From UHGV virus genome UHGV-0254771: a stretch of 13,970 nt of DNA. One strand, 5' to 3'. Below the pieces are notes generated by a model. That model made no database searches and was not told the DNA's origin. It saw only the letters and a list, made by a program, of their open reading frames with translations. The stretch is from a virus. Positions 234-9,873 of this stretch are shown here, piece by piece. Both the position numbers and the translations under genes were made by a program. Position 1 is the stretch's first letter, and every line of letters starts with the position of its first letter.

Positions 234-851
234 TTATGTTTCAATCGCCATAGATACCATCAATGAAAGTCGCTTAAAAAACTCTGTAGCAGCTTTGTCT
301 AACGTTGAATAAGTTCTTAGCTCTCCACGCCCGGGACCAGTCACAACCCACGGACGTCTTTTAGGTGTTCTGGCTCCCTCCGAAATCACAACACCTGATA
401 GACTGACATCAATTGTTATCTCCGTTCTTGTTTCATCCTCATGTCTTTCCATAAACTGAATTGCCATAAATGCTGTTTTTTTTCTTTTTCCATTTTTGAA
501 AAAATCAAATAGAGCAAATTCATGATCATTAAATTCAACTCCCCATCGACCTTCCGGATACAGGCTATGAAAGTCCTCATACACACTCTGCATCGTCTCA
601 TAAACTTTAAGCTCTAAGCTTCCATATGGCACAGTTATCATGGACGAGTCACTAGGTAGTTGTATTTTCCCAATATTAAAAAACTTTACAGCATCAGTAC
701 TATGGCATCTTGCCCTAAGTTTATCTTCTGATATGCTTATCGGAGATATATCTCTCAATGTTCCTGGCTGACTACCTCCTAAGTAAATTACCGTTAAAGA
801 TTTCTTATTTTCAATTGCATCCAGCAATATGTGTCTTACATTTTGATTCAT
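234..851 (-). CDS. Hypothetical protein (205 aa); AT-rich accessory (moron-like) gene immediately downstream of the Q antiterminator
   Basis: Intact ORF with ATG at 851..849 preceded by AGGAGG (complement of 858..863) at about 6 nt spacing. Markedly more AT-rich than the flanking replication genes. No recognisable motif, signal peptide or TM segment. Confidence 0.6.
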   Translation of the reverse strand: MNQNVRHILLDAIENKKSLTVIYLGGSQPGTLRDISPISISEDKLRARCHSTDAVKFFNIGKIQLPSDSSMITVPYGSLELKVYETMQSVYEDFHSLYPEGRWGVEFNDHEFALFDFFKNGKRKKTAFMAIQFMERHEDETRTEITIDVSLSGVVISEGARTPKRRPWVVTGPGRGELRTYSTLDKAATEFFKRLSLMVSMAIET

Positions 852-857
852 AAATAA

Positions 858-885
858 CCTCCTGCTGAACGTGTATCATCAGGAG
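858..885 (-). promoter_or_regulatory. Short hairpin whose 3' arm is the Shine-Dalgarno of the 234..851 gene (possible SD-sequestering element)
   Basis: CTCCTG (859..864) and CAGGAG (880..885) are inverted repeats giving a 6-bp stem with a 15-nt loop. On the minus-strand mRNA the AGGAGG ribosome-binding site lies in the downstream arm. The stem is short, so this is tentative. Confidence 0.3.
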
Positions 886-917
886 ATTACTGTAAAATAT
901 AACTAGTAACTGTTCAT

Positions 918-1310
918 TTATCTTGAATCATTTTCGTGATTCATATAGCAATCCATTTCTAAAGATACCTCGAGCATTGCCAGACACCCTTCAACAAACC
1001 CTTCAGCTTTCTGCAATCTAATAACAACTTGATTAAGCGATATCCCCATTTTCGCCCCTAACGCTCGTAATGTGATCCCATATACATAATACATTTCCAG
1101 TAATTGGTATTGATATGGTTCCTTTTTCTTGAGAACTGCCATAACTGAACTAATGATAAGACCATCATCATCGCAACATTGCGGTCGAAATTTTACTTTT
1201 GAGGGGATGAGGCCTTTAAACCCCGCAGCAATTGGCGACCAACTAACATTCTCATGATTATTTGCCGCCCATGCTCCCCAGCGTTCGAGAACCATCTGAA
1301 TATCACGCAT
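918..1310 (-). CDS. Phage late-gene antitermination protein Q (QuuD-like, about 130 aa)
   Basis: Translation [22 protein letters not shown]...[22 protein letters not shown] matches my recollection of the small Q antiterminators of E. coli lambdoid prophages, and sits in the expected position at the end of the early-right operon. The ORF track starts at a TTG (1325); I prefer the in-frame ATG at 1310..1308, which has GGAG about 7 nt upstream. Confidence 0.75.
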
Positions 1311-1327
1311 CAACTTTCTCCACAAAA

Positions 1328-2347
1328 TCAGGACAGCACACCTATCGCCAGCGCGCGATCGATAAAACGAAATATCAGCTCCAGTTGGGAACCATACTTC
1401 TCTTCAAATGCCACGGTATCCGCATGCAGTTCGTCATGGTGTTTTCTGCACAAAGGCAACACAAAAAGGTCATGCGCTTTTGTACCCATTCCACCCTGAC
1501 CATGACCAATCAGGTGATGAGGATCGTCGGCTGGCTTACCACAACATGCACACGGCTGCGTCTTAACCCAGCGCGTGTACTTTTCATTAACCCAGCGACG
1601 ACGTTTTGGGCGTAACATAAAAGACTCCGGCGACTCCGGATCCACTTTCAGCGCCAGCACCTTTTTCGCCTTATCCTGGATGATGCTGGTGGCAGTAACC
1701 GAAGGCACAAGGTCACTTTCCCGGGTGACAGACGGCACAACAGGCTTCGGTAATCTCAGTGCCTTACGGGCTGCACTTTCCGGTAAGGCATCCGCCAGGT
1801 CATTACGAATCAGCCACCAGCACAGTTCCGGCATTGTCACAACGTGACTGTCATCAAAACCAAGATCACGGCGCACAACAGATAACACCCAGCGGGCACA
1901 GTTATCCGTTGCCATTGCTTCCAGCCGTTCCGTGAACTGGTCACGGAGAAGATTGTCACAGTGCCAGCACAGACGGATTGCACCCGGCGCGTGCCGCATT
2001 GTGGTTATGTTCTCGCTGTGCCATCCGGAATGAGGCCACTGACAGCCCTTTTCACGAAGTAACCAGCTTTCAAGACATTCCACCCCACCAGTACAACGAA
2101 TAACTGCCTCATTGCGGAACACGGCCCGAACGGCAGGATCATCCGCCAGCGGTTGTGATGCTGCCGGAACGGCACCGCTGGCGAAAGATGAATAACGTTC
2201 CGGCTCAGGCTCCAGCAGGACACGCCCCTGCATAAACAGGGGCATCAGCTCTGAACCGGGCCTGAACAATACAATCCCCATACGCGGGGCAATTTCAGGG
2301 GTCAGCAGTGCTCTCACGGTCACCTCAGCAAACGATATTGAATGCAT
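1328..2347 (-). CDS. DUF968-like prophage protein (YdfU-like) with a C-terminal Cys/His HNH-like motif
   Basis: 339-aa ORF. C-terminal segment ...[43 protein letters not shown] has paired Cys and His-His spacing as I recall for DUF968/HNH-like zinc sites. It sits in the nin-region position between the replication genes and Q. No obvious SD before the annotated ATG, so the start is uncertain. Confidence 0.65.
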
Positions 2348-2368
2348 ACAGAGAAAAAAACTCAGTCA

Positions 2369-2626
2369 TCACGCAGTAAACTCCTTCACCAGTATTTCAA
2401 ACTGGCTTACCTGTCCTTCCAGTTCCGCCACGCAATCCACCAGCTCATCCACCGCCTTTTGTGTGCGGTGTTTTGCCTGCAGCAGATCACGAAGCGCCGG
2501 AGTAAGCTGCTTGCGGAGCGTATCTTTTTTCACGCTCGTTTTTTCCATCTGTTCAGCACAACGAAGCATCTCCTGCGCCTGCCGACGAAGTTGTTCCGGT
2601 GAAACAGTGATTGTTCTGTTGTTCAA
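2369..2626 (-). CDS. Small hypothetical phage protein (85 aa), predicted helical or coiled-coil
   Basis: ORF whose start overlaps the stop of the upstream helicase gene by 4 bp (ATGA at 2623..2626), implying translational coupling. Charged, heptad-like composition. No family recognised. Confidence 0.5.
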   Translation of the reverse strand: MNNRTITVSPEQLRRQAQEMLRCAEQMEKTSVKKDTLRKQLTPALRDLLQAKHRTQKAVDELVDCVAELEGQVSQFEILVKEFTA

Positions 2627-4023
2627 AATAAACGCTCCGTTTTACTGCCCGACATGCGGTTATTGCTGTATCTGCGCGGATTGCCCGGCGTCATGGGTGT
2701 GGAAAGAACCCGGGCACTCTCCTGGTCCACAGGCAGAAAATGTCCGTTATGAAAACGCCGGTAAATGGTCCCGAGCGTGCCATTACGCTGTTTCGTGATG
2801 TTGATTTCTGCTATGCCTCTGGCCTGAGTTTCCGGGTTGTATACCTCATCCCTGTAAAGCATCAGAATGATGTCGGCATCCGCCTCGATTTCCCCGGAGT
2901 TTTTCAGGTCCGAGTTCATTGGGCGTTTATTGGGTCTGGATTCCACGCCGCGGGAGAGCTGGCTCAGAGCAATCAGCGGAAAACCGCCGGATTTTGCCAG
3001 GCTTTTAAGTCCCTTTGAGATTTCCCCCACCGCAAGGTCGTGACGCCCCGTGCTGCGGGTTTTAATCAGGCCGAGGTAATCGACCACCACCAGCGCCGTT
3101 TCCGGGTGTTTCATCCGGTGGTGCTTCGTGGTTGCACATATCTCATCAATGGTCAGGTTTGCCTGGTCCACCATCCAGATATTACGCCCCGTCATTCGTC
3201 CCACGCCCTGCGAGAAACGCGCCCAGTCTTCATCTTCAAAACGGGCAACAGACTTAAGACGGGATACCGGCATTCCACCGGCAGCAGACACCATACGTTC
3301 ACCAATCTGGATGTTCGCCATCTCCATGGTGAACAGAAGCACGCCATGCCCCTGCTCAGTCACCTTGTCGATGATGTCCAGCGCAAGTTCGGTTTTCCCC
3401 ATCGAAGGACGGGCGGCAATGAATACCAGGTCTCCGGGCTCCATACCGCCCGTTTTTGCGTCCAGTTCATCAATACCGGTCATCAGCGCCCTGGATTTCT
3501 CCAGTCCCTGATTGCGGCATTCAACACGGTCGACCACTTCCGGAAGGACATCATCAATGTGAACCGGCTGAATGACGCCCTTTCCGGTCGACAGTGAGGC
3601 CATCATGTTCTGCGCATCCTTCAGGGCATCCTCGGCTGCTTCACAGGTATACGCATCACGTAAATTCTGTAATGCTTCAGTCAGTGTTTTTTCTGCATCG
3701 CGCAGTGCGGCATTGCGCCGCAACGCTGCGACATAGTGCTCCAGTGAAGACTTCACCCAGGTTTTGCGTCCGGTGTCGGTAATCACCGGGGCAAGTTCCG
3801 GCATCTCATTGCACAGCAGTACGGGGTCAATGACGCCGGATATGCGAGCCTGTCTGCAAATCCCCGCGTAAATATCCCGGTACTGACGCACAAAAAATAC
3901 ATCCGCCGGAAGTGTGGCCAGAATATCCATCACTTCCGGATCGGCCCCACGCAGAAAAAACGCACCGATGACAGCGCCTTCCAGGTCATCGTTACGCCAT
4001 GCCGGGGTGTTCTGGCTGGTCAT
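2623..4023 (-). CDS. DnaB-family replicative DNA helicase (phage-encoded)
   Basis: 466-aa ORF with Walker A ...ARPSMGKTELAL... and the overall layout of DnaB-like hexameric helicases. GGAGG lies about 9 nt upstream of the ATG. Start overlaps the upstream loader gene stop (ATGA at 4020..4023). Confidence 0.85.
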   Translation of the reverse strand: MTSQNTPAWRNDDLEGAVIGAFFLRGADPEVMDILATLPADVFFVRQYRDIYAGICRQARISGVIDPVLLCNEMPELAPVITDTGRKTWVKSSLEHYVAALRRNAALRDAEKTLTEALQNLRDAYTCEAAEDALKDAQNMMASLSTGKGVIQPVHIDDVLPEVVDRVECRNQGLEKSRALMTGIDELDAKTGGMEPGDLVFIAARPSMGKTELALDIIDKVTEQGHGVLLFTMEMANIQIGERMVSAAGGMPVSRLKSVARFEDEDWARFSQGVGRMTGRNIWMVDQANLTIDEICATTKHHRMKHPETALVVVDYLGLIKTRSTGRHDLAVGEISKGLKSLAKSGGFPLIALSQLSRGVESRPNKRPMNSDLKNSGEIEADADIILMLYRDEVYNPETQARGIAEINITKQRNGTLGTIYRRFHNGHFLPVDQESARVLSTPMTPGNPRRYSNNRMSGSKTERLF

Positions 4024-4928
4024 GCGGCAACACCTCCGATACGAGAACGGTAGCTGGGCCAGTTAAACGACAACCAGTTGCGCCCGCCATCGGTGATCCT
4101 GTCGGCAATCCGGGGACTGATGAACGCCCACAATTCTTCCGGTGAAAGGTTGCTGATCAGGATAGTTGGCAAAATACCCTCATACCGGGCATTGATAATT
4201 TCCTGCAAAATGGCCATTTCAGCCGCACTGCCAAACTGAACGCCGACTTCGTCGACAATCAGCAAATCCAGTGACGCATAATGCTCAATGACGTCATCCG
4301 CTGTTTTTTCACTGTCATTCCGCCAGCAGTTTTTCACAGCCCGGGTAAGGCGCATCACGTCGGTGATCTCCACACTGGCCAGATAGTTACGGATGATGTG
4401 TTTTGCCATTGATACCGCCAGATGATTTTTCCCGGTACCGCAACTGCCGGTCATAACAAGACTGGTACCGTTCTCCAGCATATCTGGCCAGTTCTCCGCA
4501 TAGCGGCGACAGGCCGCAAGATTTCTGGCTGCGTCAGGATTAACCTCCAGATAATTATCAAACTCGCAGTCCCGAAAACGCAGAGCAATTCCGGCGTTAT
4601 CAGTCAGTTCTTCCGCCTTGAGGGACGACAGTTCCATGGTCAAATCACTGGCCTCAGCGATCAAGCAGTCAGGGCAGCATGAAATTTTTTCTCTGTCCTC
4701 GCCATTACGATCGATCCACACCAGTATATGCGTACGATATTTACCGTGTTTTTCGCAATATCCGCGACCTTCACGCATCAGGCAGGAACGATAAGGCCAT
4801 GGCTTTTCGCCCTTCTGAGCAAATGCAATCTCTGCCCGTAACTCATCCATTTCTGCCCGTAACTCATCCATTCGCGCCTGTAGTCTTGTTTGTTTCTCAC
4901 GTTGGTCAATCGTCATCATCGCTGTCAC
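4020..4928 (-). CDS. DnaC/IstB-like AAA+ helicase loader with an N-terminal coiled-coil and Cys-rich (zinc-finger-like) region
   Basis: 302-aa ORF. Walker A GSCGTGKNHLA and Walker B DLLIVDEVG are typical of DnaC-like loaders. N-terminal region has C...C...H and CCPDC spacing. Contains a perfect 21-bp in-frame tandem duplication (MDELRAE x2). Confidence 0.85.
   Translation of the reverse strand: MTAMMTIDQREKQTRLQARMDELRAEMDELRAEIAFAQKGEKPWPYRSCLMREGRGYCEKHGKYRTHILVWIDRNGEDREKISCCPDCLIAEASDLTMELSSLKAEELTDNAGIALRFRDCEFDNYLEVNPDAARNLAACRRYAENWPDMLENGTSLVMTGSCGTGKNHLAVSMAKHIIRNYLASVEITDVMRLTRAVKNCWRNDSEKTADDVIEHYASLDLLIVDEVGVQFGSAAEMAILQEIINARYEGILPTILISNLSPEELWAFISPRIADRITDGGRNWLSFNWPSYRSRIGGVAA
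4831..4872. repeat. Perfect 21-bp tandem duplication (TCTGCCCGTAACTCATCCATT x2) inside the loader gene
   Basis: Positions 4831..4851 and 4852..4872 are identical. On the coding strand this is an in-frame 7-codon duplication giving MDELRAEMDELRAE. Confidence 0.9.
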
Positions 4929-4929
4929 C

Positions 4930-5922
4930 TCAGAATGTCAATTTGTTACTGGATTTACCGAATTTGTCAGACATGGCTCCCAGGCCAGCCAGGACATCGA
5001 CCTGTCGCTGTCGCCCACCTCCGTGAGCGGCTGGCTGTTGCCAGTAATCTTCGAAGTGACGATCGGGTCCAAAGAACGTCGCAGCCTGCTTCACGAACTG
5101 TGTGCCGGTATTTCCTGTAGCACGTACCCAGGCGGCATACCGCTTCACGCCATCAAGCATGGTCTCCGGTTTTATTCCCTCCCTGATACGGGCTTTCCAG
5201 GCTTTGAAGGCTGCTGACTTGGAATTGCCACCAGCACGTTTGGGATATTCCTGCCAGGCCTGTTCAAATTCCGGTGAATATTCCTGTCGGGCAGAACGCG
5301 CTGGCGCAGACGCGTCAGCGGATGCATCAATAGTGTTTTTAGTCTCCGTTGTAATCTCTGTAGTAATCTCTGTATTTGTATCAACATTCGGCGTATCCCC
5401 TGTTCCGTTATGACGTCGGGGGGTGTTCCGTTTTAACGTAATAGCTGTATCGCTGATTGCATTATTGCTGTTACTTTCTGGCGAAACAGAAGAAGGTGTG
5501 GTGATGGCCGCAATTGCCTGTGGGTTGATCCCGACAAACAAAATATTGCTGCATTTCACCCCATCGAGCATTTCCACCGTGCGTAAATCCAGAGTAATAA
5601 ACCCTGCATCGCGCAGACGCTTCAGCGCATCTGCGGTTTCCCTTTTCCCGAAACCAAACTGCTCAGCAAACGCCTGGTAGCTTCTTTGCAGTTTGTCGCC
5701 CTGAAAACGCTTGCGATATCCCAGCAACGCTCCGGTGTGCTCATCCCTGACCTCTGTCGGGCGGTACCAGTAAACGATCTCTGAAAGCAGAGCGATAGCC
5801 GTCGCATCCGGACGCCCACTGGGTAGTCGAATATATTTCCACCAGTTCGCAGGTGTAACATTGCCGGAAATATTAATTTGACCAATAGCCATAACTTCCG
5901 GTGTGGTGGCGTAACGGCTCAT
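4930..5922 (-). CDS. Replication initiator / replisome organiser (lambda O-like role), 330 aa
   Basis: Sits immediately upstream of the loader and helicase genes in the same operon. N-terminal winged-helix-like region, low-complexity linker (TEITTEITTE, ASADASA) and a conserved-looking basic C-terminal domain. Contains internal DNA repeats consistent with an origin embedded in the gene, as in lambda O. Family assignment is from position and general features. Confidence 0.65.
   Translation of the reverse strand: MSRYATTPEVMAIGQINISGNVTPANWWKYIRLPSGRPDATAIALLSEIVYWYRPTEVRDEHTGALLGYRKRFQGDKLQRSYQAFAEQFGFGKRETADALKRLRDAGFITLDLRTVEMLDGVKCSNILFVGINPQAIAAITTPSSVSPESNSNNAISDTAITLKRNTPRRHNGTGDTPNVDTNTEITTEITTETKNTIDASADASAPARSARQEYSPEFEQAWQEYPKRAGGNSKSAAFKAWKARIREGIKPETMLDGVKRYAAWVRATGNTGTQFVKQAATFFGPDRHFEDYWQQPAAHGGGRQRQVDVLAGLGAMSDKFGKSSNKLTF
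5351..5374. repeat. Two tandem 12-bp repeats (GTAATCTCTGTA x2) within the initiator gene; candidate origin iterons
   Basis: 5351..5362 and 5363..5374 are identical direct repeats; the GACGCGTC palindrome lies about 40 bp upstream (5309..5316). Lambda-type origins lie inside the O gene as tandem iterons. Only two copies are seen here, so this is tentative. Confidence 0.4.
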
Positions 5923-6218
5923 ACAACCTCCTTCCGCGGCATGAGAATTGTGTAGCCACGCGCAGGTTGTAGTCTGGCTTTTGCATCAATAGTAAGCGTT
6001 GCAATTTTTCGGATATGAAGATAACCAGCTCTTTCCAGTGCCAGGGTTTCCCTGAATATCGCTTGCTTAGAACAACAGCAGAAATCAGCAAGCACCTGAT
6101 GATCAATAACTCTCTCGCCTTCACCGTCTGAAGAACCCGACATCAAAACACGCAACATAATCAGGCGCTGAATCGGGTTATCGAAAGCACATCCGCACAC
6201 AAACTGAAAACAGTTCAC
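5919..6218 (-). CDS. Small hypothetical protein (99 aa), possible winged-helix DNA-binding fold
   Basis: ORF with ATGA overlaps at both ends (5919..5922 and 6215..6218). Segment ...LADFCCCSKQAIFRETLALERAGYLHIRK resembles a helix-turn-helix. Confidence 0.5.
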   Translation of the reverse strand: MNCFQFVCGCAFDNPIQRLIMLRVLMSGSSDGEGERVIDHQVLADFCCCSKQAIFRETLALERAGYLHIRKIATLTIDAKARLQPARGYTILMPRKEVV

Positions 6219-6439
6219 GCCACACCTCCCAGACGCTTAAACATTTTTCCAGACAGAAATACCGCCAGAGGGTAACTGATGGTGTAGCTACGCCCCTGTA
6301 GTTCGCACACGACTTTCTGGCTTTCAGCGTTGACCAGGCAAACCCGCAGAACGTGACCGTTGCTGGTGGCGAACCACTGCCCCACACGGGGGCAACGGTT
6401 GTATCGGTGATACAGGGAATTAACGATGTGGCGGATCAT
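6215..6439 (-). CDS. Small hypothetical phage protein (74 aa)
   Basis: ORF linked to neighbours by 4-bp overlaps (6215..6218 and 6436..6439). No motif recognised. Confidence 0.45.
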   Translation of the reverse strand: MIRHIVNSLYHRYNRCPRVGQWFATSNGHVLRVCLVNAESQKVVCELQGRSYTISYPLAVFLSGKMFKRLGGVA

Positions 6440-6630
6440 GGACGCACCTCCGCCGTAGTTACGTATTTAACCGGGCTACCTTTCATTGAGATGGTTTCAC
6501 ACATCTCTGCCGCTTTCAGTTCCGCTGTTTTTCTGGATTTATAGCAACGGTGCCAGACAGATACATCCGTGCGAACTGATACATCGTTTCTGTATTCCGT
6601 AGTGGAGATGATGATTTCGTAACTAATCAT
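6436..6630 (-). CDS. Small hypothetical phage protein (64 aa)
   Basis: ORF linked to neighbours by 4-bp overlaps (6436..6439 and 6627..6630). No motif recognised. Confidence 0.45.
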   Translation of the reverse strand: MISYEIIISTTEYRNDVSVRTDVSVWHRCYKSRKTAELKAAEMCETISMKGSPVKYVTTAEVRP

Positions 6631-7178
6631 GGGCGAACCTCCTTGTCAGAACCATTCAGCCTGGAATCAACAAGTGCAGCGCCAAAAACAGCATCACCAA
6701 CACGGTCGTACAGTTTGCTAGCCAGCGGAGATTCAACGGCCTTAAGCATTGGATAAAGCTGGCTTGTCCAGATTTGATGGATTTCACGCAAATGCAGGTA
6801 TACGCCTCTGGCGTTTCGTGCGACAGCTGACATATCAGACGCATCGGCACCTGATAAACTCTTCTCCATCAGGTTAAAGGCGTTGATGTATGCCTCTTTG
6901 AACTGGGCAGCACGTTTACCAGTGAAGCCCATAGCAAGGAACGCGAAGCCATCACGGGTGATTTGATAGCAAGGTAGTTTGCGGCCTGTGCAATCGGTGT
7001 AATCACTCACCGAAAAATTGCGGGCAGTGAATGATGCGGAGCATTCAAGCGTGCGGATCTTTTTCAGTACATCGTCATGACGCTTGGAGAAGAAGTTGGC
7101 AACAGCCAGGGATGAAGTAACAGCCTGACCATCAACGATGGCAATTTCAGGTTGAGTGAGGGTTGGGATCGTAGCCAT
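6627..7178 (-). CDS. Rha-family phage regulatory protein (about 183 aa from the internal start)
   Basis: Segment ...VDGQAVTSSLAVANFFSKRHDDVLKKIRTLE... carries the (F)GKRHD(N/D)VLR-type signature I associate with Rha-family proteins. The ORF track extends to 7478 (283 aa), but the ATG at 7178..7176 has GGAGG about 8 nt upstream and places the Rha domain at the N-terminus, as is usual. The ATG at 7478 has no SD and would add 100 low-complexity residues. Confidence 0.65.
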   Translation of the reverse strand: MATIPTLTQPEIAIVDGQAVTSSLAVANFFSKRHDDVLKKIRTLECSASFTARNFSVSDYTDCTGRKLPCYQITRDGFAFLAMGFTGKRAAQFKEAYINAFNLMEKSLSGADASDMSAVARNARGVYLHLREIHQIWTSQLYPMLKAVESPLASKLYDRVGDAVFGAALVDSRLNGSDKEVRP

Positions 7179-7562
7179 GATGGCAGCCTCCGTTGACTGT
7201 GGAAAACTTCCACCACCGGAGCTGCGAAACTCACTGGTGGCAGACTGAACAGGGTTCGCAGTACCGGCGTCAACGGAGACCGGCGAGCCTTTCGGCTCCC
7301 CTGCCCAGCCCACCATAATTCTGGCGTGCGTGAGCGCGGACGATAAAAAAGACGCTGGCGCGTCATATATCGCCGTTGACAATTCCGGGCTGCGACCCCC
7401 GGCACCCGCTTTATAAGGTGCAGAGACAGTGTAACGTCCCGAAATTGCAGAATCAATATTTGGTCTTGAAATGATCATATAGCTGCTGATATCTTTAGAA
7501 CTGTTCTTGGATGTTTCGGAGCCGTTTTATGCGAAACAGCTCCCCGTTATTGATGTTGAGTG

Positions 7563-7587
7563 AGCCGGGTTACTCCCGGCTTTTTTT
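7563..7587 (+). terminator. Intrinsic terminator oriented for plus-strand transcripts (7-bp GC-rich stem, 5-nt loop, T7 tract)
   Basis: AGCCGGG (7563..7569), TTACT loop, CCCGGCT (7575..7581), then a T run through 7587. On the minus strand the stem is preceded by A and followed by CACTCAACAUC, so it works on plus-strand RNA only. The T tract abuts the stop codon of the minus-strand gene 7587..8300. Confidence 0.6.
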
Positions 7588-8300
7588 CACCGCTGCCAAC
7601 CAATAACCTGAAATAACCCCATTTTCGGGTGATACCAGCGAGTCCCTCGCGGTTCTGCTTCCTCCATAACCCGATAAAAAGCAGCCATAAACGGTTCCAC
7701 AGCAACAATTGCGCGACGTGACAACAATCCGTCCGGCGTCATGAACTCATGGGTGTCTGTAGGAATCTGATAGGCGTTCACCAGATTGCGGCATTTATCA
7801 TCTGACAAACCGGTTTTTGCTTTCAGTTGGCGATATCCGGCATAGCCCTCACGAATAGTGCCCTTTTTAATTTGCTCGACTGTTTCAGCAACGTGGCTGA
7901 CTTTTTCTTCCACCTGAGTGATCCGTTTCTGCTGACGAACTGCTTCAAGAGCCATCGCGGCAACCATTTCGATTTCGCTCATTGGCTTACGGATCTGTTC
8001 TTCCAGTTCGCGCCAGCGATCTACCAGGCGAGCAGTGAATTCAGGACAGAGCTGTGCGACGACAATGATGCTGTCGCGCTTACCTTGTTCTCCTTCAAAC
8101 AGGTAATGCTCATATTGAACTTTAAAACCTAAGTTATTGATTCTTTCGGAAACCTCAATTTGAGGAGACCGGACAACGCCACCTTTGGCTAATGTTTCAA
8201 TAGTGCGTTTCACATTGTCATGACGTTTACCCACCAGCTCTGCGATCTCAACGCTGGTCATGGATGCTTTGTCGTTAAAAATTGCGGTGTTCACTGCCAT
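7587..8300 (-). CDS. Rha-family phage regulatory / antirepressor-like protein with a divergent C-terminal domain (ORF6C-like)
   Basis: N-terminal MAVNTAIFNDKASMTSVEIAELVGKRHDNVKRTIETLAKGG carries the Rha-type KRHDNV signature; the C-terminal half is unrelated to the 6627..7178 paralog. Start is uncertain: ATG at 8300 has AAGGAG directly adjacent, GTG at 8294 has ideal 6-nt spacing, and the ORF track starts at 8336. Confidence 0.7.
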   Translation of the reverse strand: MAVNTAIFNDKASMTSVEIAELVGKRHDNVKRTIETLAKGGVVRSPQIEVSERINNLGFKVQYEHYLFEGEQGKRDSIIVVAQLCPEFTARLVDRWRELEEQIRKPMSEIEMVAAMALEAVRQQKRITQVEEKVSHVAETVEQIKKGTIREGYAGYRQLKAKTGLSDDKCRNLVNAYQIPTDTHEFMTPDGLLSRRAIVAVEPFMAAFYRVMEEAEPRGTRWYHPKMGLFQVIGWQR

Positions 8301-8413
8301 CTCCTTACGGATAAATTCTTTTAAGATTCCGCACATTCGTATTTATTGGTGCCGAACCTTCCTTCAGTTATCCTTTTGATCCCTATAAACAAAAGAACCA
8401 AAGGAGGTTCGAC

Positions 8414-8707
8414 ATGAAAGTTCAGGCCGTTGGTTTATTCTGGTTTCGCGATGCGATTCAGTATCATGAGCTCAAAAATATTTTTACTGATGCTGATGTG
8501 CTCTCCGACAGTTACACCGAGTGGAAACACGACGCTGAAAAATTGATTAAGCGTGTCGAAAGAAGCGGGCAACGAGTTATTAAAGTTGAAGCGGATACAG
8601 CCGAGTTCATCACCTGGTGTACAAGCGAAGGCATTGGAATCAATGCCGAAGGTAGAATGCAGTTCGCATCCTTTAAGGCTTACCAACAACTTCTCAGCGA
8701 ACGCTAA
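8414..8707 (+). CDS. Hypothetical protein (97 aa) encoded convergently to cro, inside the early-right operon
   Basis: Textbook RBS AAAGGAGGTTCGAC-ATG (AGGAGG at 8402..8407). Balanced charged composition and E. coli-like codon choice. Followed by a GC-rich hairpin (8714..8738) and T-rich tail. A minus-strand ORF (8435..8767) overlaps it entirely but looks like a shadow frame. Confidence 0.6.
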   Translation: MKVQAVGLFWFRDAIQYHELKNIFTDADVLSDSYTEWKHDAEKLIKRVERSGQRVIKVEADTAEFITWCTSEGIGINAEGRMQFASFKAYQQLLSER

Positions 8708-8713
8708 TGTGAT

Positions 8714-8746
8714 TGGGGCAATCGAAATGGTTGCCCCATCGTATTT
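8714..8746 (+). terminator. Probable terminator hairpin for the 8414..8707 gene
   Basis: TGGGGCAA (8714..8721) pairs with TTGCCCCA (8731..8738), 9-nt loop, followed by TCGTATTT and further T-rich sequence. The U tract is interrupted, so strength is uncertain. Confidence 0.4.
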
Positions 8747-8777
8747 AATAGTTATTTTTTCGCTCATATCACCACCA

Positions 8778-9050
8778 TCACTTCTCGTCCTCTGTGTGCG
8801 CTAAGCTTGGATTTGAAATTTTGCGTAACGAATCAGGAATTCCATCTTCAGGGTGAGGATAAAGATCTGGCCTTAAGCCATGTGGCGTGACCTTCCATGC
8901 AACTACTTCACATACGCGTAAAACGAAACGAGCAGGAATTGTGTTTTTTGAAAACCACTGATTCACCGCTTGCGGCGTCACACCAAGATTTCGCGCTATG
9001 GCATTTTGCGCAATTAATGCACGAAGTTTGTCGTAATCATTTCCTTTCAT
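8778..9050 (-). CDS. cro: Cro-like small HTH regulator (90 aa)
   Basis: Divergent from the CI-like repressor across an operator-rich intergenic region. Helix-turn-helix ...ALIAQNAIARNLGVTPQAVNQWFSK... Symbol given as functional analogy to lambda cro. Confidence 0.75.
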   Translation of the reverse strand: MKGNDYDKLRALIAQNAIARNLGVTPQAVNQWFSKNTIPARFVLRVCEVVAWKVTPHGLRPDLYPHPEDGIPDSLRKISNPSLAHTEDEK

Positions 9051-9183
9051 AACAAAGCACCAACATTAACTTTATAAATCAAGAATACATCAAGTTTAAA
9101 TTAACATGCAAGTTGCAAAAGGATCGAATACACTAAAATCAAGTAAAGATTTATCCTTGTAAAGAAACCCACAGGATTTGGTC
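9051..9183. promoter_or_regulatory. Divergent immunity control region (pR/pRM-type promoters and operators) between cro and cI
   Basis: 133-bp AT-rich intergenic region between divergent HTH genes. ATCAAG recurs at 9078..9083, 9089..9094 and 9138..9143 with TTATAA/TTTAAA cores; the same half-site occurs as a palindrome near the pL-like promoter. Exact -35/-10 boxes could not be assigned by eye. Confidence 0.6.
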
Positions 9184-9873
9184 ATGAAGAACGTCAAAAA
9201 CACGGAAAATCGAATAGCCGCGATGCTGAAAGCAAAAGGATGGACTCAGGCTCAACTGGCCCGCAAGTTAGGTGTGAGTGCGCAATCAGTGCAGTACTGG
9301 ACAACAGGAAAAACATTTCCACGGAGTGATAAGCTCGCGCATTTATCCGAGATTAGCGGTTATCCACAATCCTGGTTCTTAGGTGAAGACTCCTCACCAA
9401 CCTTTTCCTCGCAAGAGAAACACCAGACAAGAACAGATAGCGTCGTGTTTAATGTCCTTGATGTTGAGTTTAGTTGCGGTGATGGAACTCATGTCCGTGG
9501 TGACTTGATAGATGTAGTGCGCTCAATAGAACTTGATCCTGAATATGCCCGACGCCTTGTTGGAAATCGGGCATTCAAAAATATAGAAATAGGTAACGCC
9601 AGAGGAGACAGTATGGCTCCCACAATCTCACCTGGCGACCTTCTTTTTCTTGATAAGACAGTAACTTATTTTGATGGCGATGGCATTTATGCATTTTGTT
9701 TTGATGGAGAATGCTACGTGAAAAGACTTCAAAAAATTGGAAGCAAAATCATGGTGTTATCTGATAACCCCAATTATCAACCATGGAGCATCGAAAAAGA
9801 GGGGTTAGCTCTGCTTTATATCCAGTCTAAAGTGATCTCATCAGTACCATTCAATATAAACAGATTTGGTTAG
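9184..9873 (+). CDS. cI: CI-type prophage repressor: N-terminal XRE-family HTH plus C-terminal S24 (LexA-like) autopeptidase domain
   Basis: HTH ...WTQAQLARKLGVSAQSVQYW...; C-terminal GDSMAPT (Ser nucleophile) and downstream VKRL (Lys) match the S24 autocleavage dyad. ATG at 9184 has AGGA about 7 nt upstream (track starts at a TTG, 9178). Followed by a strong terminator. Symbol is by analogy. Confidence 0.9.
   Translation: MKNVKNTENRIAAMLKAKGWTQAQLARKLGVSAQSVQYWTTGKTFPRSDKLAHLSEISGYPQSWFLGEDSSPTFSSQEKHQTRTDSVVFNVLDVEFSCGDGTHVRGDLIDVVRSIELDPEYARRLVGNRAFKNIEIGNARGDSMAPTISPGDLLFLDKTVTYFDGDGIYAFCFDGECYVKRLQKIGSKIMVLSDNPNYQPWSIEKEGLALLYIQSKVISSVPFNINRFG

What the first reader, a model, noticed from the sequence alone, without database searches (positions are those of the whole stretch)
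7179..7587. About 380 bp of GC-rich apparently non-coding sequence with a plus-strand-only terminator between two minus-strand Rha genes: candidate small or antisense RNA
The operon is otherwise tightly packed, yet the stretch between the likely start of the downstream Rha gene (7178) and the stop of the upstream one (7587) has no convincing ORF. Two minus-strand frames are open here, but both translate to low-complexity A/G/S/P/R-rich sequence with no SD. The region ends in a canonical intrinsic terminator (7563..7587) that works only for plus-strand RNA, preceded by a second imperfect hairpin (7519..7544). A terminator oriented against every nearby gene implies a plus-strand transcript ending here, antisense to the leader of the 6627..7178 gene, comparable to lambda OOP or P22 Sar. 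Alternatively the region is a degraded N-terminal domain.
Basis: partly seen in the sequence, partly recalled or inferred. Interest (0 to 1): 0.5.

Follow-up and report, generated by a model that had tools for sequence, protein, structure and literature searches.

The report
Known phage antisense-RNA switch, misannotated as protein
The "empty" gap holds a well-known phage control cassette, two small RNAs (IsrK and C4) on the same strand as the genes that gate translation of the next gene by base pairing; this is ordinary, although public annotation wrongly reads it as protein.

Summary
The gap 7179-7587 is real and non-coding, but its main content is on the minus strand, not the plus strand. 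Rfam finds two full-length RNA genes there: isrK (7421..7345) and C4 antisense RNA (7320..7233), both above their gathering scores.

The layout matches the P1 immI, P4 immunity and Gifsy-1 isrK-anrP cassettes. In order:
- a conserved promoter;
- an IsrK leader carrying target copies a1/b1, with its own leaky terminator;
- C4, carrying a'/b';
- target copies a2/b2, with b2 covering the Shine-Dalgarno of the Rha-type gene (ATG 7178).

In 28 diverse relatives the three sets of sites change together (97.6% and 89.8% paired, strong covariation).

RefSeq's 283-aa ORF and the Pfam "Ash" domain are translations of these RNA genes. They show no codon-position or pN/pS signal, and in phage P4 "Ash" maps onto the CI RNA.

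The plus-strand terminator (7562-7589) is also real. It travels with the 3' end of the upstream roi-like gene. A conserved promoter-like site (7466-7495) lies about 70 nt before it, so an ~88-nt plus-strand RNA is possible (about 0.4). That RNA would not overlap the Rha leader.

Verdict: already known system; low-moderate interest.

The parts
7428..7456 (-). Promoter of the cassette (PisrK-like): -35 TTGATT at 7456..7451, 17-nt spacer, -10 TACACT at 7433..7428, start at G7421.
   Evidence: Read from the sequence. The same TTGATT-17-TA(C/T)A(C/G)T-6-G arrangement stands before isrK in most of the 16 loci from other genera. The tool scan misses it (8 of 12 consensus matches). The transcription start was mapped in Gifsy-1 (PMC4825925), not here.
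7345..7421 (-). IsrK-type leader/sRNA. Contains hairpin 1 (7421..7402), hairpin 2 whose loop is target copy a1 (GUCGCAG, 7396..7390), target copy b1 (GUCAACGG, 7380..7373), and its own intrinsic terminator (7364..7345, GACGC-GCCA-GCGUC-U6).
   Evidence: Rfam RF01394: 58.7 bits against gathering score 50, full model. Terminator found. Hairpin 1 is 100% paired with 5 of 6 pairs changed on both sides. a1/b1 pairing with C4 is 97.6% across 28 sequences.
7233..7320 (-). C4-type antisense RNA. A long closing stem encloses two hairpins. Loop b' is CUCCGUUGAC (7278..7269). Junction a' is CUGCGAA (7261..7255). The 3' end has ...CCACCA.
   Evidence: Rfam RF01695: 78.8 bits against gathering score 45, full model. 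Helices are 99.2%, 100% and 93.4% paired, and 15 of the 28 pairs in these three helices are changed on both sides.
7314..7316 (-). Conserved AUG at C4 nucleotides 5-7, equivalent to the first AUG of Gifsy-1 orf45. Here it is in frame with ATG 7178 and would give a 229-aa product.
   Evidence: ATGG(T/C)GG is present in all 16 loci. Invariant columns A106 T107 G108 in alignment A1. Translation of orf45 is shown only in Gifsy-1 (PMC4825925).
7222..7228 (-). Target copy a2 (UUCGCAG) in the leader of the Rha-type gene, complementary to a'.
   Evidence: helices 3 and 4: 90-93% paired, 6 of 7 pairs changed on both sides.
7199..7213 (-). Small leader hairpin (GUGGAA-GUU-UUCCAC) between a2 and b2.
   Evidence: Only 60% paired in relatives, so support is weak.
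7187..7197 (-). Target copy b2 (GUCAACGGAG, 7197..7188) overlapping the Shine-Dalgarno GGAGG (7191..7187). It lies 8 nt before ATG 7178 and is perfectly complementary to the C4 loop b'.
   Evidence: Sequence. b'-b2 helix is 87.7% paired with 7 of 8 pairs changed on both sides.
6627..7178 (-). Regulated gene: Rha-family, antirepressor-like protein of 183 aa. Its first ~10 codons (MATIPTLTQP) resemble the start of P1-like icd.
   Evidence: Pfam PF09669 at 104.8 bits. Homologs are annotated as antirepressor in Stx phages. Coding signature: entropy 0.64/0.54/1.00 by codon position. icd-like start seen.
7562..7589 (+). Plus-strand-only intrinsic terminator (GAGCCGGG-UUACU-CCCGGCUU + U7) abutting the stop codon of the upstream gene.
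   Evidence: Kept in all three known spacer haplotypes with 6-8 T. An unrelated hairpin plus T-rich tail sits at the same place in another context (L083/L084). Absent upstream of isrK in other genera.
7518..7543 (.). Second hairpin; the strand on which it acts is undecided.
   Evidence: Folds on both strands: -11.8 kcal/mol on plus, -15.1 on minus. The three haplotypes have different sequences that each fold. G-U variants favour the minus strand in haplotype A and the plus strand in haplotype B.
7466..7495 (+). Plus-strand sigma-70-like promoter candidate: TTGAAA-18-TG-n-TATCTT, back-to-back with the isrK promoter. It would start an ~88-nt RNA at about 7500 ending at 7587-7589.
   Evidence: It is the only promoter-like site the scan finds in 6000-9500. 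The same site is the only hit in haplotype B (L082) and haplotype C (L220). No expression data.
7587..8336 (-). Upstream roi-like Rha-family gene, whose 3' flank carries the plus-strand terminator.
   Evidence: Pfam PF09669 at 40 bits. Annotated Roi or DNA-binding protein in phages. Mosaic breakpoints show that 7564-7640 travels with this gene.

Best explanation
The interval is an immI-type antisense-RNA control cassette on the minus strand, the same strand as the genes.

Proposed mechanism:
1. A conserved promoter (-35 at 7456..7451, -10 at 7433..7428) starts transcription at G7421.
2. Most transcripts stop at a weak terminator (7364..7345). This gives the 77-nt IsrK RNA, which carries target copies a1 and b1.
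3. Read-through transcripts continue through C4 (7320..7233) into the Rha-type gene.
4. C4, probably cut out of the read-through RNA, pairs through junction a' and loop b' with a2 (7228..7222) and b2 (7197..7188). Because b2 overlaps the Shine-Dalgarno GGAGG, pairing blocks translation of the 183-aa Rha-family (antirepressor-like) protein that starts at 7178.
5. IsrK, carrying the decoy copies a1/b1, competes for the same C4 sequences. High IsrK therefore frees the ribosome site.

What is shown here: the RNA families, the folds, the three-way complementarity and its covariation, and the conserved promoter and terminator.

What is inferred from P1, P4 and Gifsy-1: processing of C4, the direction of the regulation, and the antirepressor role of the protein.

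The 283-aa ORF in RefSeq and the Pfam 'Ash' domain are conceptual translations of these RNA genes.

The plus-strand terminator is a separate element. It belongs to the 3' flank of the upstream roi-like gene. It either ends a short divergent plus-strand RNA or shields roi from antisense transcription.
For: RNA families in the window:
- Both families match over the full model above their gathering scores.

Conservation of the arrangement:
- The same isrK -> C4 -> Rha-gene order, with isrK starting 233-253 nt before the ATG, occurs in 16 loci from Serratia, Citrobacter, Edwardsiella, Pantoea, Erwinia, Marinomonas, Endozoicomonas and others.
- The same two Rfam families hit the P1-like immI region (RCS47) and the P4 immunity region. 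Both share the AGGAGGCUGCCAU(U/C)AUGGCUAC start region.

Structure and pairing in 28 sequences:
- Intramolecular structure is 90.3% paired, 24 pairs are changed on both sides, and the covariation score is 0.342 against 0.164 in shuffles and 0.06-0.11 when partners are slid.
- a1/b1 with a'/b': 97.6% paired, covariation 0.919 against 0.209.
- a'/b' with a2/b2: 89.8% paired, covariation 0.653 against 0.194.
- 0 of 500 shuffles reach the observed covariation score or percentage paired in any of the three tests.

Other elements:
- The promoter is conserved across genera.
- The minus-strand terminator is present.

Coding tests:
- Entropy by codon position is 0.60/0.57/0.56 in the extension and 0.64/0.54/1.00 in the Rha CDS.
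- pN/pS is 0.83 in the gene frame against 0.80 and 1.01 in the other frames. In the Rha CDS it is 0.63 against 0.96 and 0.98.

Pfam Ash:
- In P4 the family maps onto the old 'cI protein' ORF over the CI RNA. The true P4 epsilon protein belongs to another family.

Experimental precedent:
- In Gifsy-1, compensatory mutations proved the IsrK G28/G31 pairing with orf45 C162/C159. A processed ~80-nt species (STnc1160) covers the C4 position (PMC4825925).
- P1 c4 represses Ant synthesis (PMC8546580, PMC8198154).
Against: - No expression, processing or reporter data exist for this phage.
- The Rfam c4-a1b1 model scores only 17.2 bits in the window, below its gathering score of 46.7. The a1/b1 complementarity itself is present.
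- a1 pairs over only 6 of 7 positions.
- The reading frame through isrK and C4 is open in 51 of 54 close variants. That could mean the region is also translated.
- The two published models differ on the role of IsrK: an activator acting in trans on the long RNA (Gifsy-1) or a passive upstream target copy (P1). Sequence alone cannot decide between them here.
- The function of the Rha-family product as an antirepressor is untested.
Confidence: 0.88

Rival explanations
1. A short (~88-nt) plus-strand sRNA is made from the promoter-like site 7466-7495 and ends at the terminator 7562-7589. It is divergent from the isrK promoter. It would be antisense only to read-through RNA coming out of the upstream roi-like gene, or it would act in trans. 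This could hold in addition to the main explanation.
For: - The terminator is strong.
- The promoter-like site is the only one the scan finds in 3.5 kb.
- The same TTGAAA-18-TGnTAT(C/T)TT site, at a similar distance (60-70 nt) from the terminator, is the only hit in spacer haplotypes B and C, which are about 70-80% identical to the window here.
- The T-run (6-8 T) lies outside any coding sequence yet is always kept.
- A 13-nt block just after the predicted start (GTTCTTGGATGTT, 7503-7515) is conserved in haplotypes A and B.
Against: - Only three haplotypes exist, so conservation has little statistical weight.
- The promoter matches 9 of 12 consensus positions with an 18-nt spacer.
- The strand of hairpin 2 is ambiguous.
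- No Rfam family matches.
- The element is absent from isrK-C4 cassettes in other genera.
- No transcript data were found in the literature searched.
Confidence: 0.4
2. One reading: a plus-strand RNA ending at 7587 that is antisense to the leader of the 6627..7178 gene and controls it, in the way lambda OOP or P22 Sar control their targets.
For: The terminator orientation. P22 ant and P1 ant are indeed controlled by antisense RNAs (own knowledge; PMC8546580).
Against: - No plus-strand promoter-like site lies below 7466, so any plus-strand RNA ending at 7587 starts upstream of the leader's 5' end (7421).
- Conservation in 7233-7421 is explained by minus-strand folds, including invariant G-U pairs that would be A-C mismatches on the plus strand.
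- The regulator that is complementary to the SD is C4, on the same strand.
Confidence: 0.04
3. The interval encodes a real N-terminal 'Ash' protein domain fused to Rha, giving the 283-aa product that RefSeq annotates.
For: - Pfam PF10554 matches at 62.1 bits against a cut-off of 26.
- PGAP calls the 283-aa CDS.
- The frame is open in 51 of 54 close variants, and spacing differences are multiples of 3 (240/243/246).
- Column shuffles expect 0.57 stops per sequence where none is seen.
- In-frame ATGs with SD-like sequences lie upstream in some genera.
Against: - There is no third-position excess and no frame-specific pN/pS.
- The 'domain' spans the -10 box, a transcription start and an intrinsic terminator.
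- The frame is broken in L011, L014, L016, L018, L072, L074, in F004/P13374 and in the P1-like phage, while the RNAs stay intact.
- ATG 7478 lacks an SD.
- In P4 the family maps onto the CI RNA.
- Allowing for linked alleles, the stop-codon deficit is only about p 0.03-0.13 (my estimate).
- A weaker version remains possible at about 0.3: ribosomes read through from the conserved AUG at 7316 as a leader or coupling device, as for Gifsy-1 orf45.
Confidence: 0.06
4. The two hairpins at 7518-7589 act in the sense (minus-strand) RNA, as a 3' stability or processing element for the roi-like mRNA. On this view the plus-strand 'terminator' look is a by-product.
For: - The minus-strand fold is more stable than the plus-strand fold relative to shuffles (z = -4.65 against -2.97).
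- Haplotype A variants keep G-U pairs on the minus strand.
- The hairpin sits directly after the stop codon in several contexts.
Against: - The A6-8 run before the hairpin, which is the T-run on the plus strand, is non-coding. It has no obvious role in a sense-strand stability element, yet it is always kept.
- Haplotype B and L144/L184 variants keep pairing only on the plus strand.
Confidence: 0.25

Closest known systems
Bacteriophage P1/P7 immI operon (c4 antisense RNA - icd - ant1/ant2)
   Same: - Same order on one strand: promoter, upstream target copies a1/b1, a terminator-like hairpin, C4 with a'/b', then downstream copies a2/b2 with b2 over the ribosome site of the next gene.
- The P1-like phage RCS47 is hit by the same two Rfam models and has the same AGGAGGCUGCCAUUAUGGCUAC start region.
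- The first codons of the regulated gene resemble icd.
   Different: - Here b2 gates a Rha-family protein directly. There is no separate 73-aa icd followed by a KilAC/Ant-type antirepressor.
- The cassette sits in the early operon of a lambdoid Stx-type prophage, not in a plasmid prophage.
- No C1-type operator was recognised.
- The specificity sequences differ: window a' is CUGCGAA and b' is CUCCGUUGAC; RCS47 has GUCUCAA and CCUUUGAC.
Salmonella Gifsy-1 isrK-orf45-anrP-isrJ locus (Hershko-Shalev et al. 2016, PMC4825925)
   Same: - IsrK with its own promoter and leaky terminator.
- A conserved AUG at the start of the C4-equivalent (orf45 / STnc1160).
- An antirepressor-like gene behind it.
- IsrK-to-downstream pairing at the positions that correspond to a1-a'.
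   Different: - In Gifsy-1, orf45 ends in an AUGA overlap with anrP. Here the frame runs straight into the Rha gene, like the 287-aa S. dysenteriae case noted in that paper.
- The Gifsy-1 cassette follows antQ. Here it follows a roi-like gene ahead of the replication genes.
- No isrJ was found here.
Satellite phage P4 immunity (seqA - CI RNA - seqC)
   Same: Rfam isrK and C4 hit the seqA and CI regions of P4. A processed RNA pairs with copies upstream and downstream of itself.
   Different: - In P4 the outcome is premature transcription termination of the replication operon (own knowledge, and PMC4825925 discussion).
- The isrK-to-start spacing is 327 nt in P4 against 243 nt here.
Lambda OOP RNA / P22 Sar RNA
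   Same: Short RNAs with an intrinsic terminator in a phage regulatory region. Sar also controls an antirepressor gene.
   Different: OOP and Sar are transcribed from the opposite strand and overlap their target. Here the proven complementary regulator is on the same strand, and the possible plus-strand RNA overlaps neither the coding sequence nor the leader.

Membership tests
C4 antisense RNA (Rfam RF01695; P1/P7 c4, P4 CI) | Match to the covariance model above the curated gathering score, over the full length | tested here: met
   78.8 bits against 45, model positions 1-87 of 87, at 7320..7233 on the minus strand.
C4 antisense RNA (Rfam RF01695; P1/P7 c4, P4 CI) | Closing stem plus two internal hairpins, supported by compensatory changes | tested here: met
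   Helices are 99.2%, 100% and 93.4% paired in 28 sequences, and 15 of the 28 pairs in these three helices are changed on both sides.
C4 antisense RNA (Rfam RF01695; P1/P7 c4, P4 CI) | Single-stranded a' and b' complementary to a2/b2 downstream, with b2 covering the ribosome-binding site of the next gene | tested here: met
   7-bp a'-a2 and 10-bp b'-b2 over GGAGG. 89.8% paired, covariation 0.653 against 0.194 in shuffles.
C4 antisense RNA (Rfam RF01695; P1/P7 c4, P4 CI) | Second set of target copies (a1/b1) upstream of C4 | tested here: met
   a1 at 7396..7390 and b1 at 7380..7373. 97.6% paired, covariation 0.919 against 0.209. The RF03163 model itself is below threshold in the window (17.2 against 46.7) but above it in 5 relatives.
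C4 antisense RNA (Rfam RF01695; P1/P7 c4, P4 CI) | Cut out of the operon transcript (by RNase P in P1) and acting as translational repressor of an antirepressor | not testable with these tools
   Needs RNA mapping and reporter assays. The 3' ...CCACCA and the Rha-family product (annotated as antirepressor in relatives) are compatible with it.
IsrK (Rfam RF01394; Gifsy-1) | Match to the covariance model above the gathering score | tested here: met
   58.7 bits against 50, model positions 1-77 of 77, at 7421..7345 on the minus strand.
IsrK (Rfam RF01394; Gifsy-1) | Own promoter and own intrinsic terminator, giving a short RNA and a read-through mRNA | tested here: inconclusive
   The promoter is conserved in most of the 16 loci and the terminator is present. 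Read-through and the two isoforms cannot be shown from sequence.
IsrK (Rfam RF01394; Gifsy-1) | Followed by a short translated ORF (orf45) coupled to the antirepressor-like gene | tested here: inconclusive
   The AUG is conserved at 7316..7314. Here it is fused in frame to the Rha gene rather than ending in an AUGA overlap. Translation is untested.
Cis-encoded antisense RNA of the OOP / Sar type | Promoter on the strand opposite to the target gene | tested here: inconclusive
   One promoter-like site at 7466-7495, kept in three haplotypes. No activity data.
Cis-encoded antisense RNA of the OOP / Sar type | Transcript overlaps the target's coding region or ribosome site | tested here: not met
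   The predicted RNA (about 7500-7589) ends at the stop codon of the upstream gene and lies upstream of the IsrK start at 7421.
Pfam PF10554 Phage_ASH protein domain | Profile match above the curated cut-off | tested here: met
   62.1 bits against 26, residues 16-111 of the 283-aa ORF, which is window 7433..7146.
Pfam PF10554 Phage_ASH protein domain | Evolves as a protein: excess third-position change, and lower pN/pS in the reading frame than out of it | tested here: not met
   Entropy is 0.60/0.57/0.56. pN/pS is 0.83 in the gene frame against 0.80 and 1.01 out of frame. The Rha CDS gives 0.64/0.54/1.00 and 0.63 against 0.96/0.98.

The most novel reading that the evidence does not exclude
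Two readings are not excluded.

(1) An ~88-nt plus-strand sRNA gene (promoter 7466-7495, terminator 7562-7589) sits back-to-back with the isrK promoter in this group of Stx-type prophages. It would be a third, undescribed RNA in the cassette, possibly acting on read-through RNA from the roi-like gene or in trans.

(2) The reading frame through two working sRNA genes is kept open by selection. Ribosomes starting at the conserved AUG inside C4 (7316) would run into the Rha frame and make a longer isoform, so the locus would be both RNA regulator and leader ORF.
Probability: 0.4. Interest if true: 0.45.

Novelty: already known. Interest (0 to 1): 0.3.

Why it matters
- **Lysis-lysogeny control.** The cassette is an RNA gate on an antirepressor-like gene in prophages of the Stx-converting type. 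It therefore bears on the decision that governs Shiga toxin release.
- **Annotation.** RefSeq calls this stretch a protein ("ash family protein", or a 283-aa Rha protein) in hundreds of E. coli genomes and lists no RNA. Published comparisons of Stx phage regulatory regions discuss an "Ash domain" of unknown function (PMC8951638). The evidence here says that domain is the translation of the IsrK and C4 RNA genes.
- **One system, not three.** IsrK (Salmonella), the a1/b1 leader of P1 and seqA of P4 are the same element of one system. Reviews still list them as separate examples.

Tried and rejected
- **tRNA/tmRNA scan:** nothing found.
- **Rfam at permissive E-values on 7150-7700:** only terminator-driven weak hits on the plus strand, for example sroD at 24.5 bits against gathering score 50. 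No known family for the plus-strand unit.
- **Shared operator motifs:** searched between 7422-7600 and the cro-cI or roi-upstream intergenic regions. Nothing longer than one 8-mer, and only an 8-bp palindrome, ATGATCAT at 7471.
- **Trans target for the conserved block ACATCCAAGAAC:** only the self match in the window. A wider RNA-duplex scan for targets timed out, so this was not tested.
- **Very long in-frame ORFs upstream in L005, L006, L008 and L009 (300-400 codons):** the translations look like antisense-of-gene noise, so I rejected them as evidence for a fusion protein.
- **Pfam Ash as P4 epsilon (as stated in a preprint):** rejected. Epsilon is PF25738, and Ash maps on the cI/CI-RNA ORF.
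- **My first C4 structure string was mis-registered by 2 columns.** Corrected.
- **Original P1 papers (PMC312442, PMC196329):** not held. P1 mechanistic details beyond PMC8546580 and PMC8198154 rest on my own knowledge.
- **Hairpin 1 as a boxB/nut-like site:** considered and dropped. The AGUAA loop does not fit and there is no boxA; this was judged by eye and not tested further.
Full report
**1. The observation**

The window is part of a lambdoid, Stx-converting-type prophage. It is 100% identical over 7100-7700 to many E. coli chromosomes, and over 7425-7640 to phages Stx2_EH2201 and ASU11 (99.5% to PhiR49_2).

- All genes from 234 to 8336 lie on the minus strand and mostly overlap by a few bases.
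- Between the ATG of a Rha-family gene (6627..7178, Pfam Phage_pRha 104.8 bits) and the stop of another Rha-family, roi-like gene (7587..8336, 40 bits) lies a gap of about 410 bp.
- The plus-strand terminator is there: stem 7562-7582, 8 pairs, then T7. It folds at -16.1 kcal/mol, z = -4.2.
- The imperfect hairpin at 7518-7543 is also there.
- The "GC-rich" description fits only 7200-7440 (0.58-0.61). The stretch 7440-7560 is AT-rich at 0.38.

**2. What the gap contains**

A scan against Rfam finds two full-length matches, both on the minus strand:
- C4 antisense RNA at 7320..7233 (78.8 bits; gathering score 45);
- isrK at 7421..7345 (58.7 bits; gathering score 50).

The isrK match ends in a minus-strand intrinsic terminator at 7364..7345.

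Directly upstream is a promoter, TTGATT-17-TACACT, placing the start at G7421.

Downstream of C4, a strong Shine-Dalgarno (GGAGG, 7191..7187) precedes ATG 7178.

**3. The pairing scheme**

C4 folds into a long closing stem with two hairpins.

- The loop of its second hairpin (b', CUCCGUUGAC) is perfectly complementary to GUCAACGGAG (b2, 7197..7188), which overlaps the Shine-Dalgarno.
- The junction after that hairpin (a', CUGCGAA) is complementary to UUCGCAG (a2, 7228..7222).
- A second set of targets lies in IsrK: GUCGCAG in the loop of hairpin 2 (a1, 7396..7390) and GUCAACGG (b1, 7380..7373).

This is the arrangement described for the P1/P7 immI operon. Rfam even holds a separate model for the a1/b1 copies (RF03163). 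That model overlaps the 5' half of the isrK hits in five relatives.

**4. Relatives**

A search for relatives of the 183-aa protein in one genome per species returned 80 loci. Of the 20 scanned with Rfam, 16 carry isrK followed by C4 directly before the gene, with isrK starting 233-253 nt before the start codon. They come from Serratia, Citrobacter, Edwardsiella, Pantoea, Izhakiella, Symbiopectobacterium, Erwinia, Endozoicomonas, Marinomonas and Phlomobacter.

The promoter is conserved in most of them.

The a and b sequences differ between loci but change together at all three places. On an alignment of 28 sequences (A1):

| Structure tested | Cells paired | Pairs changed on both sides | Covariation score | Shuffled | Partners slid |
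|---|---|---|---|---|---|
| Intramolecular (isrK + C4) | 90.3% | 24 of 50 | 0.342 | 0.164 | 0.06-0.11 |
| a1/b1 with a'/b' | 97.6% | 13 of 15 | 0.919 | 0.209 | 0.05-0.15 |
| a'/b' with a2/b2 | 89.8% | 13 of 17 | 0.653 | 0.194 | 0.06-0.15 |

The shuffle control does not correct for relatedness. The slid-partner control does, and it is equally clear.

Invariant G-U pairs in C4 fix the strand as minus.

**5. Link to characterised systems**

- The same two Rfam models hit the immI region of the P1-like phage RCS47, between pacB and ant, and the immunity region of satellite phage P4.
- All three share the AGGAGGCUGCCAU(U/C)AUGGCUAC start region. The first codons of the window gene (MATIPTLTQP) resemble the start of P1-like icd.
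- In Gifsy-1, IsrK is made from its own promoter, and read-through of its terminator gives the isrK-orf45-anrP mRNA. IsrK supplied in trans activates translation.
- In the same study, compensatory mutations (IsrK G28/G31 with orf45 C162/C159) proved a pairing that corresponds to a1-a' here. A processed ~80-nt RNA (STnc1160) covers what Rfam calls C4 (PMC4825925).
- In P1, c4 RNA represses synthesis of the Ant antirepressor (PMC8546580, PMC8198154).

I therefore read the window as a member of this system. C4 occludes the ribosome site of the Rha-type gene. IsrK carries decoy copies that compete for C4.

Processing of C4, the sign of the IsrK effect and the antirepressor activity of the protein are inferred, not shown.

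**6. Is the 283-aa ORF real?**

RefSeq annotates 6627..7478 as one CDS and lists no RNA. Many genomes call the stretch "ash family protein". Pfam Phage_ASH matches residues 16-111 of that ORF. That is window 7433..7146: the -10 box, IsrK, C4, the leader and 11 codons of Rha.

Against a protein domain:
- Variability by codon position is flat in the extension (0.60/0.57/0.56). It shows the coding pattern in the Rha CDS (0.64/0.54/1.00).
- pN/pS in the gene frame (0.83) is no lower than in another frame (0.80). The Rha CDS gives 0.63 against 0.96 and 0.98.
- The frame is broken in six of the 16 loci from other genera, in the F004/P13374 phages (within isrK) and in the P1-like phage, while the RNAs stay intact.
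- In P4, the Ash profile maps on the obsolete "cI protein" ORF lying over the CI RNA. The real derepression protein epsilon belongs to PF25738.

One point remains unexplained:
- In 51 of 54 close variants the frame is open, and spacing varies by multiples of three. Column shuffles expect 0.57 stops per sequence.
- Allowing for the few linked alleles, this is only suggestive.
- It may reflect ribosomes that start at the conserved AUG inside C4 (7316, the orf45 AUG of Gifsy-1) and here run in frame into Rha.

**7. The plus-strand terminator**

Where it belongs:
- Mosaic breakpoints in E. coli genomes show that 7564-7640 travels with the upstream roi-like gene and 7425-7464 travels with the isrK promoter. 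The spacer between them occurs only where both meet.
- Among about 170 viral contigs the spacer has just three haplotypes.
- All three keep the hairpin directly after the stop codon and a run of 6-8 T on the plus strand.
- In another context (L083/L084) an unrelated hairpin with a T-rich tail sits at the same place.
- Where the next gene follows at once there is no hairpin.
- Cassettes in other genera lack it.

So the terminator is a conserved feature of the roi flank, not of the RNA cassette.

A possible plus-strand RNA:
- The only sigma-70-like site the scan finds in 6000-9500 is on the plus strand at 7466-7495 (TTGAAA-18-TGaTATCTT). It lies back-to-back with the isrK promoter, 67 nt before the terminator.
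- The same site is the only hit in haplotypes B and C.
- This would give an RNA of about 88 nt.
- The strand of the middle hairpin is undecided: variants keep G-U pairs on the minus strand in haplotype A and on the plus strand in haplotype B.
- I give a plus-strand RNA about 0.4.

**8. Verdict**

The finding is a known RNA control system, present here in complete form and misread as protein by public annotation.

Two things remain open and modestly new: the possible divergent plus-strand RNA, and the persistently open frame through two sRNA genes.

Noticed in passing
window 7146-7433 (minus strand); L167 (phage P4) 8330-8521: The Pfam family PF10554 'Phage_ASH' appears to be built on translations of the IsrK/C4 RNA genes. 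Here it spans a -10 box, a transcription start and a terminator. In P4 it maps on the obsolete 'cI protein' ORF over the CI RNA, not on epsilon. RefSeq names many E. coli CDS 'ash family protein' from it.
   Followed up: yes
L170 (P1-like phage RCS47) 1491-1569; L167 (P4) 8615-8692: The Rfam isrK model hits the a1/b1 leader of the P1-like immI operon and the seqA region of P4. IsrK, the P1 leader and P4 seqA are therefore one element. A hairpin plus T7 terminator also stands between a1/b1 and C4 in the P1-like phage.
   Followed up: partly
L086 220-408 and 1080-1268; L012 1299-1493 and 2258-2446; L072 2004-2082: Some prophages carry two isrK-C4 cassettes in tandem, each before its own Rha/'ash' gene. 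L072 has an extra C4 copy.
   Followed up: no
L013 2367-2453; L036 2347-2437; L169 (phage P13374) 1868-1951: The Rfam family sRNA-Xcc1 (RF02221) occupies the position of C4 directly upstream of Rha homologs, and next to antB in the O104:H4 Stx phage. It may be a C4 relative that Rfam has not placed in the C4 clan.
   Followed up: no
window 7150-7178 (minus strand): The first ~10 codons of the Rha-type gene (MATIPTLTQP) match the start of P1-like icd (MATVPTPTHP). The mobile cassette therefore seems to include the start of whatever gene it controls.
   Followed up: partly
window 8414-8738 (plus strand): A 97-aa ORF on the plus strand, with its own strong terminator (8714-8738), lies between the cro-like gene (8778..9050, minus) and the roi-like gene. 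It is convergent with cro. It has no Pfam match.
   Followed up: no
window 7587-7589 and 7478: The stop codon of the upstream roi-like gene is in the same reading frame as the 283-aa ORF, separated from it by two stops. Long in-frame open stretches upstream in some other genera look like antisense-of-gene noise.
   Followed up: partly
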